From the sequence record MH791411.1: a stretch of DNA of 64,000 bases; one strand, 5' to 3'. Source of the DNA: Escherichia phage Ecwhy_1. Within the stretch, counting starts at the first letter, position 1; each line of letters begins with the position of its first letter. Positions 57,350 to 57,829 of the stretch are shown one piece after another. The notes under the pieces were generated by a model that was given only the letters and a program-made list of their open reading frames with translations, did not search any database and was not told the origin of the DNA. The position numbers and the translations under genes were made by a program.

Positions 57350-57829
57350 TTATTTTAGAATGTATAAGTGTTTTTCTGCATTAACCAGTCTGTGGTCAAT
57401 GATTTCTTTGATAACGTTCCAGTTACCACCGCCTAAATCGGCTCCAATTTTCGGGAAGTGTACATGGATCTCTTGTGGTTCATTTTTAATGAATTCATTC
57501 ATCGAGTTAAATGCAAGGTCAATCGCATCATAACTTACATACTTCTTACCATCATTACCATAATACTCTTGTGTAATGCAGTTTGCAATAATTAAGTTAT
57601 TATTTGGTGCTGCATAGACAACTTCACCCAATTTCAAACCATTCTGATTGGTATAACGTGTATGATACACATCATATGCCAATTGGTGACGCTTTCTTAA
57701 TTCTTTTGCAAAACCAGAACCCATCTTACCCTGAGCGTTACAACCATGAGCGATAATATGTAATGCAGTTTGATCAGTAGTAACAGTACTGAATAAATCA
57801 AACAGATTACCACAATGTTCATGTATCAT
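57350..57829 (-). CDS. Macro-domain (ADP-ribose binding/hydrolase-like) protein
   Basis: IIAHGCNAQGKMGSGFAKEL (N-x-N...G-x-GSG) and HFPKIGADLGGGNW resemble the macro-domain diphosphate-binding loops; RBS GGAGA. Confidence 0.55.
   Translation of the reverse strand: MIHEHCGNLFDLFSTVTTDQTALHIIAHGCNAQGKMGSGFAKELRKRHQLAYDVYHTRYTNQNGLKLGEVVYAAPNNNLIIANCITQEYYGNDGKKYVSYDAIDLAFNSMNEFIKNEPQEIHVHFPKIGADLGGGNWNVIKEIIDHRLVNAEKHLYILK

What the first reader, a model, noticed from the sequence alone, without database searches (positions are those of the whole stretch)
57350..57829. Phage macro-domain protein: candidate reversal of host ADP-ribosylation
The 159-aa protein shows macro-domain signature loops (HGCNAQGKMGSGFA and FPKIGADLGGGNW). 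Macro domains bind or hydrolyse ADP-ribose adducts. In a phage this could counter host ADP-ribosylating toxins or defence systems, or process NAD-derived signals. It sits in a block with Nudix, glutaredoxin and tRNA-related genes.
Basis: inference. Interest (0 to 1): 0.65.

Follow-up and report, generated by a model that had tools for sequence, protein, structure and literature searches.

The report
Jumbo-phage macrodomain, likely anti-DarT enzyme
This is a real, single-copy macrodomain gene of a giant E. coli phage, from the same phage family as two recently validated enzymes that strip a host defence's ADP-ribose marks off phage DNA, so it is a plausible but untested and unsurprising new member of a known kind.

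Summary
It has a GGAG ribosome-binding site and both quoted motifs.

The protein carries the Thr-Gln pair of SCO6735 in place of the DarG/TARG1 catalytic lysine. It is 32% identical to T4 Tk.4. Tk.4 (AdfM) and PhiKZ gp104 (AdfM) are published anti-DarTG2 factors, and all three fall in PHROG 335.

The most likely role is therefore removal of DarT2-type ADP-ribose from thymidine in phage ssDNA. This is inferred from homology, not shown.

Two caveats stand out. Asp131 replaces a glycine whose G-to-E mutation causes substantial loss of SCO6735 activity. Codons 5-121 are a sharply bounded allele replacement in otherwise ~100% identical genomes.

The ortholog in phage 121Q has been annotated as a macro (Appr-1-p processing) domain protein since 2014, and macro domains occur in 56% of jumbo phages. 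This is a new member of a known kind, of modest interest.

The parts
57350..57829 (-). Macrodomain gene, 159 codons plus stop; the only macro gene in the phage genome
57836..57839 (-). Shine-Dalgarno GGAG, 6 nt upstream of the ATG at 57829
   Evidence: Read directly from the sequence.
57847..57870 (-). 10-bp stem-loop followed by a T-rich run, in the 51-nt gap between the upstream ORF (57881-58138) and the macro gene. It is terminator-like, so the macro gene may be separately regulated or reached by read-through.
   Evidence: Terminator scan (3 sites found against 2.1 +/- 1.6 expected, so weak on its own) and the sequence.
57707..57748 (-). Loop 1 (residues 28-41, HGCNAQGKMGSGFA). H28 and N31 correspond to SCO6735 His24 and Asn27.
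   Evidence: Alignment to 5e3b. SCO6735 mutagenesis (PMC9411070). Invariance of H28, G29, C30, N31, M36 and G39.
57569..57574 (-). Thr86-Gln87. Gln87 occupies the position of the catalytic Lys of DarG (K80) and TARG1 (K84), and equals SCO6735 Gln85, where Q85A is inactive.
   Evidence: Alignments. Q87 invariant in 119 + 142 homologs. PMC9411070.
57419..57457 (-). Phosphate-binding loop 2 (residues 125-137, FPKIGADLGGGNW). It includes Asp131 (codon 57437-57439) at the position of SCO6735 Gly128.
   Evidence: Ungapped alignment to 5e3b. G128E causes substantial loss of activity (PMC9411070). Residue counts at position 131.
57467..57815 (-). Allele-replacement segment (codons ~5-121), ~70-78% identical in DNA to the common Asteriusvirus allele, inside flanks that are ~100% identical
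   Evidence: Sliding identity against vB_Ec-M-J, fEgEco12 and BF17. 107 of the 772 differences in 64 kb fall in this ORF. Segment-wise pN/pS.

Best explanation
The gene encodes a stand-alone, catalytically competent macrodomain of the ALC1/TARG1/DarG class. It belongs to the Gln-type subgroup typified by SCO6735, BT1257 and T4 Tk.4. The most likely role is that of an orphan-antitoxin-like anti-defence enzyme (AdfM-like). In that model, an infected E. coli releases the DarT2 toxin, which ADP-ribosylates thymidines in single-stranded phage DNA and blocks replication. The macrodomain then binds the ADP-ribose moiety in the cleft formed by loop 1 (res 28-41), the Thr86-Gln87 loop and loop 2 (res 125-137), and hydrolyses the ribose-thymine N-glycosidic bond. 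This releases free ADP-ribose and restores the template. What is shown here: a real gene, the macro fold, the class, conserved pocket residues, and homology to validated enzymes. What is inferred: the substrate (thymidine-ADPr in ssDNA), the biological target (DarTG2) and the timing of expression.
Confidence: 0.5

Rival explanations
1. It is an ADP-ribosylhydrolase for a different macromolecular adduct. Candidates are uracil- or other base-linked ADP-ribose on RNA, or Glu/Asp-linked ADP-ribose on proteins, laid down by host defence transferases other than DarT2 or by unknown phage enzymes.
For: TARG1, DarG and SCO6735 also reverse uracil-ADPr on RNA (PMC13036486). SCO6735 also removes Glu/Asp-linked ADPr from PARP1. 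The D131 clade differs from validated enzymes in loop 2 and carries an insertion at residues ~12-21, which could shift specificity.
Against: No T4 Alt-like transferase was detected in the phage genome by tblastn, and no ADP-ribosyltransferase is annotated in the Turkey3 record. The nearest phage homolog with a phenotype (T4 Tk.4) maps to DarTG2 specifically. CmdT-type RNA adenine ADP-ribosylation is described in the literature as irreversible.
Confidence: 0.2
2. It processes a small ADP-ribose derivative. Candidates are ADP-ribose-1''-phosphate (Poa1p-like 'phosphatase', the historical annotation), O-acetyl-ADP-ribose made by the phage's own Sir2-family protein, or an NAD-derived immune signal.
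Against: Poa1p has Ser where this family has the invariant Gln87, and its Ser30 aligns with Lys35 here (and direct reading). The phage carries T4-type Rnl1 and Pnkp annotations; by established knowledge, that tRNA repair route does not produce Appr-1''-p. No Tpt1/KptA is annotated. The Sir2 gene lies about 36 kb away and is not linked. The Nudix specificity cannot be assigned, and the linkage is lost in more distant phages.
Confidence: 0.15
3. It is catalytically weakened by Asp131 and works mainly as a binder, either blocking DarT directly or sequestering ADP-ribosylated sites.
For: G128E in SCO6735 causes substantial loss of activity. The corresponding glycine is conserved across the solved ALC1-class relatives compared in PMC9411070. 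Catalytically dead SCO6735 Q85A still inhibits DarT by interaction. The two hypervariable surface segments (residues 45-78 and 104-121, 26% and 22% identity between alleles) could be an interaction surface.
Against: All other pocket residues stay invariant across the D131 clade down to ~53% identity, which is not expected if catalysis were lost. Position 131 is naturally variable (G, D, A, V, E, S, K) in an otherwise fixed pocket, suggesting that its side chain is tolerated.
Confidence: 0.07

Closest known systems
T4 Tk.4 (AdfM; bioRxiv 10.1101/2025.11.20.689424)
   Same: Both are stand-alone ~155-160 aa phage macrodomains in PHROG 335. They share the HGCN...MGSG loop, the Thr-Gln pair and the PRIGAG/PKIGAD loop. 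They are 32% identical (E 1e-13), with profile probability 99.3%. Both have BT1257 as their best solved relative.
   Different: Tk.4 has Gly at the Asp131 position and lacks the insertion at residues ~12-21. Its genomic context differs (between tk and vs). Tk.4 has a genetic phenotype; this protein has none.
SCO6735 of Streptomyces coelicolor (PDB 5E3B; PMC9411070) and BT1257 (PDB 2FG1/2AFC)
   Different: They are bacterial chromosomal proteins. SCO6735 Gly128 is Asp131 here and Lys34 is Ser38. Identity is only 24-29%.
DarG2 antitoxin macrodomain and chimallivirus AdfM (PhiKZ gp104; PMC13309987)
   Different: DarG and gp104 use a Lys (FPTK motif) where this protein has Gln. DarG has a C-terminal DarT-binding domain that is absent here. 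The NCBIfam DarG score is 26.6 against a cut-off of 250. Identity to gp104 is 19%. gp104 is imported into a phage nucleus; Asteriusviruses are not chimalliviruses, so no such import is expected.
Poa1p, yeast ADP-ribose-1''-phosphate phosphatase (PDB 6LFQ)
   Different: Poa1p has Thr-Ser rather than Thr-Gln, and its Ser30 aligns with Lys35 here.
Human TARG1 (PDB 4J5S)
   Different: The TARG1 Lys84/Asp125 dyad is Gln87/Gly133 here (residue mapping from my own recollection of the TARG1 sequence, consistent with the published numbering).

Membership tests
Macro domain superfamily (Pfam PF01661) | Three-layer alpha/beta/alpha macro fold | tested here: met
Macro domain superfamily (Pfam PF01661) | Score above the Pfam gathering threshold | tested here: not met
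   17.9 bits against a cut-off of 22. Many close homologs, T4 Tk.4 and PhiKZ gp104 do pass, so this is a sensitivity issue of the model and not evidence against membership.
ALC1-like / TARG1-DarG class of macrodomains | Closest structural neighbours are TARG1, DarG, SCO6735/BT1257 and Poa1p rather than MacroD, PARG or viral macro types | tested here: met
Gln-type subgroup (SCO6735 / BT1257 / T4 Tk.4) | Gln at the position of the DarG/TARG1 catalytic Lys, held by the loop-1 Asn | tested here: met
   Q87 and N31 align with SCO6735 Gln85 and Asn27. Both are invariant in 119 and 142 homologs.
Gln-type subgroup (SCO6735 / BT1257 / T4 Tk.4) | Small Gly in the phosphate-binding loop (SCO6735 Gly128) | tested here: not met
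   Asp131 occupies this position. Gly occurs in 117 of 142 representatives and Asp in 10. G128E causes substantial loss of activity in SCO6735.
DarG antitoxin (NCBIfam NF048014) | Equivalog score; two-domain protein with a C-terminal DarT-binding domain; catalytic Lys; adjacent darT | tested here: not met
   26.6 bits against a cut-off of 250. The protein is a 159-aa single domain. Gln replaces Lys. No ADP-ribosyltransferase gene is annotated or detected nearby or elsewhere in the phage.
AdfM (anti-DarT factor, macrodomain) | Phage-encoded stand-alone macrodomain homologous to T4 Tk.4 or PhiKZ gp104 | tested here: met
AdfM (anti-DarT factor, macrodomain) | Protects the phage from DarTG2 and removes DarT2-made ADP-ribose from DNA | not testable with these tools
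Poa1p-type ADP-ribose-1''-phosphate phosphatase | Residues matching the Poa1p mutants deposited in the PDB (His23, Ser30) | tested here: inconclusive
   The His is conserved (H28), but Poa1p Ser30 aligns with Lys35 and the Thr-Ser pair is Thr-Gln here. The mutant structures are listed. Activity was not tested.

The most novel reading that the evidence does not exclude
The Asp131-plus-insertion clade, found in Asteriusvirus/Rak2-like jumbo phages, may be a mechanistic variant of the Gln-type macrodomain. The acidic residue in the phosphate-binding loop and the extra N-terminal helix could change substrate or chemistry, for example by supplying the general acid/base that SCO6735 lacks or by targeting a different ADP-ribose adduct. 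The precise replacement of codons 5-121 between otherwise identical phages could reflect an arms race with variant host transferases acting on two hypervariable surface patches.
Probability: 0.12. Interest if true: 0.55.

Novelty: new member of a known kind. Interest (0 to 1): 0.3.

Why it matters
If the inference is right, Asteriusvirus jumbo phages, which are being characterised as therapy candidates against pathogenic E. coli, carry a built-in counter to DarTG2 defence. That would extend the AdfM concept from T4-like and nucleus-forming phages to a third major lineage.

The natural Gly-to-Asp change in the phosphate-binding loop, and the cassette-like allele exchange, offer an inexpensive test of which residues set activity and specificity in Gln-type macrodomains.

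It does not open a new question. The fold, the family and the anti-defence role are already described for relatives.

Tried and rejected
1. Pfam alone gives a sub-threshold Macro hit and a spurious Peptidase_M16_C hit. I did not rely on it.

2. I looked for partner enzymes in the whole phage genome (Turkey3; tblastn). There is no T4 Alt-like transferase, no second macro gene, and no BLAST-level homolog of T4 AdfN (gene 30.3).

3. The Turkey3 record annotates a 'NADAR domain-containing protein' (274551-275042). Pfam, NCBIfam and PDB sequence searches do not confirm it, and PHROG 652 has unknown function. I therefore do not claim a macro plus NADAR toolkit like that of T4.

4. I tried to assign the neighbouring Nudix as an ADP-ribose pyrophosphatase. 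Only the generic Nudix box matches, so I rejected this as evidence.

5. The sigma-70 promoter scan is not above chance (22 sites against 16.9 +/- 4.0). I make no promoter claim.

6. I considered positive selection in the two hypervariable segments (pN/pS 0.57-1.05). I rejected it as not demonstrable. Synonymous sites are near saturation, these segments are poorly conserved across the whole family, and the same segments are conserved between the fEgEco12 and 121Q alleles.

7. Supplementary tables of Iyer et al. 2022 are not held. The Asteriusvirus genome and proteome papers do not mention the gene.

Full report
**Observation**

The ORF is real but lies on the minus strand: 57829 (ATG) to 57350 (stop), 159 aa. 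The plus-strand frame is full of stops. GGAG sits 6 nt upstream of the ATG. A 10-bp stem-loop with a T-rich tail (57847-57870) fills most of the 51-nt gap to the upstream ORF.

**Origin**

Window 56000-60500 is 99.8% identical to Escherichia phage Turkey3 (361 kb), 95-98% to several other Asteriusvirus-type jumbo coliphages, and 85% to phage 121Q. In 121Q the ortholog (gene 544) is already annotated 'Appr-1-p processing domain protein', which means macro domain. Other records call it 'phosphatase' or 'hypothetical protein'.

**What it is**

- Pfam Macro is sub-threshold: 17.9 bits against a cut-off of 22.
- PHROG 335 matches at 1.3e-44.
- PDB sequence searches find BT1257 (1.3e-15), SCO6735 (2.3e-10) and Poa1p (4e-4).
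- With a 55-sequence profile the PDB search gives BT1257 1e-25, SCO6735 2e-18, Poa1p 3e-14, DarG 3e-12 and TARG1 1e-8.
- The PADLOC DarG model matches at 3.4e-9. The NCBIfam DarG equivalog scores 26.6 bits, far below its cut-off of 250.
- AlphaFold2 on the alignment gives pLDDT 93.5 and pTM 0.89.

**Active site**

Mapping onto SCO6735 (alignment; mutagenesis in PMC9411070):

| This protein | SCO6735 | Note |
|---|---|---|
| H28 | His24 | |
| G29 | Val25 | |
| N31 | Asn27 | N27S nearly inactive |
| S38 | Lys34 | DNA-binding Lys not kept |
| Q87 | Gln85 | Q85A inactive; position of the DarG K80 / TARG1 K84 catalytic Lys |
| D131 | Gly128 | G128E: substantial loss of activity |

T4 Tk.4 shares the Thr-Gln pair. 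PhiKZ gp104 and DarG have Thr-Lys.

In 119 close homologs, H28, G29, C30, N31, M36, G39, T86, Q87, G91, P126 and G129 are invariant. In 142 further 50%-cluster representatives, Q87, N31 and G39 are again invariant.

Position 131 is the exception. It reads G 53, D 45, A 11, V 6, E 3, Y 1 in the close set, and G 117, D 10 plus other residues in the broad set. Asp131 marks the closest ~45 homologs. It co-occurs with an insertion at residues ~12-21 that adds a short helix.

**Published function of relatives**

- T4 tk.4 was named adfM after a transposon screen, and a clean knock-out made T4 sensitive to DarTG2 (bioRxiv 10.1101/2025.11.20.689424).
- Chimallivirus AdfM (PhiKZ gp104) removes DarT2-made ADP-ribose from DNA, rescues DarT2 toxicity, and loses activity when its conserved Asn is mutated (PMC13309987).
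- SCO6735 cleaves thymidine-linked ADP-ribose and protects against DarT (PMC9411070).

The window protein is 32% identical to Tk.4 (E 1e-13) and 19% to gp104. Its family profile matches them at 99.3% and 97.9% probability. All three fall in PHROG 335.

I therefore rate 'AdfM-like removal of DarT2 ADP-ribose from phage ssDNA' as the most likely function, with confidence about 0.5. Every step beyond fold, class and residue conservation is inference.

**Rival explanations**

The class is promiscuous. TARG1, DarG and SCO6735 also reverse uracil-ADPr on RNA (PMC13036486). SCO6735 also acts on Glu/Asp-linked protein ADPr. Poa1p is a small-molecule phosphatase.

Iyer et al. 2022 found macro domains in 56% of jumbo phages and argued for small ADPr-derivative substrates (PMC9503650).

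The phage genome holds a Sir2-family protein (Pfam 1.3e-19) that could make O-acetyl-ADP-ribose, but it lies about 36 kb away. The genome also carries annotated T4-type Rnl1 and Pnkp genes. No Tpt1 is annotated, which argues against a supply of Appr-1''-p (established pathway knowledge).

No Alt-like transferase and no second macro gene were found.

Asp131 raises the possibility of weakened catalysis. The invariance of the rest of the pocket across the Asp clade argues against that reading.

**Context**

Pfam confirms glutaredoxin, NUDIX and a CCA-adding enzyme downstream of the upstream small ORFs, and dNMP kinase, neck and sheath genes on the other side.

The same gene order is kept in Yersinia phage fHe-Yen9-04, whose macro protein is 53% identical. 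It is not kept around a more distant homolog on a 401-kb contig, where the neighbours are SAM synthetase and SAM lyase. It is not kept in T4 either. The block is lineage synteny, not a conserved functional operon. The Nudix specificity cannot be assigned.

**Allele replacement**

Against fEgEco12, the 64-kb window differs at 772 positions (98.8% identity). Of these, 107 fall inside this 480-bp gene, all between 57361 and 57815. Only 6 other differences lie in 56000-59500. vB_Ec-M-J and BF17 show the same island, and only Turkey3 shares the window allele.

Comparison of the window allele with the common (fEgEco12) allele, by segment:

| Residues | Result |
|---|---|
| 1-44 | pN/pS 0.12, pS ~0.5 |
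| 45-78 | 26% identical, pN/pS 0.85 |
| 79-103 | pN/pS 0.13, pS ~0.5 |
| 104-121 | 22% identical, pN/pS 0.57 |
| 122-159 | no synonymous difference |

The last row places a recombination breakpoint near codon 122. The pattern reads as import of a diverged allele from an unsampled relative, with selection holding the pocket fixed.

I do not claim positive selection. Synonymous sites are near saturation, and the variable segments are poorly conserved family-wide.

**Novelty and verdict**

The family is large: 2466 phage records carry a homolog, and there are 6290 cluster representatives at E<=1e-3. It was already annotated as a macro domain, and its anti-defence role is published for relatives.

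This is a new, untested member of a known kind. The Asp131 clade and the cassette-like allele exchange are the only mildly unusual features. Interest 0.3.

Noticed in passing
window 60420-61242 (ORFs 60420-60863 and 60829-61242, minus strand): Two adjacent paralogous ORFs (both PHROG 20693, function unknown) form a second sharply bounded divergence island: 75-86% identity to fEgEco12 and vB_Ec-M-J inside ~100% identical flanks. This is possibly another fast-exchanging accessory locus.
   Followed up: partly
window 62600-63100 (N-terminal half of ORF 62720-63673, minus strand): A third divergence island (63-84% identity even to Turkey3) covers the N-terminal, non-lysozyme half of a 317-aa lysozyme-domain protein. 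The C-terminal lysozyme part is conserved.
   Followed up: partly
window 61400-62000: This segment is present in Turkey3 and fEgEco12 but essentially unalignable (10-34% identity) in vB_Ec-M-J, BF17 and 121Q. It is an indel or replacement of small ORFs.
   Followed up: no
window ~23900-34600: Off-diagonal BLAST matches of 1.0-1.2 kb at 68-78% identity show internally repeated modules within the very long tail-fibre genes.
   Followed up: no
window 16805-17269 (+): A second Nudix-annotated ORF (154 aa) lies among baseplate and tail genes. Its identity rests on the fEgEco12 g324 annotation and was not checked with Pfam here.
   Followed up: no
window 56632-57009 (-): This 125-aa ORF is annotated 'peptidyl-tRNA hydrolase' or 'aminoacyl-tRNA hydrolase' in Turkey3 and fEgEco12. 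It has no Pfam or NCBIfam hit, and its only PHROG (14786) has unknown function, so the tRNA-related label is unsupported by sequence profiles.
   Followed up: partly
Turkey3 PQ471515 274551-275042 (outside the window; L014:42252-42743): This gene is annotated 'NADAR domain-containing protein', which would parallel T4 AdfN. Pfam, NCBIfam, PDB sequence search and BLASTP against T4 30.3 do not confirm it.
   Followed up: partly
Turkey3 PQ471515 87987-88739 and 337098-357400 (outside the window): The first locus is a Sir2-family protein, confirmed by Pfam. The second is an array of about 17 paralogous genes annotated as HERC1, RCC1-like or NS1A-binding protein.
   Followed up: no
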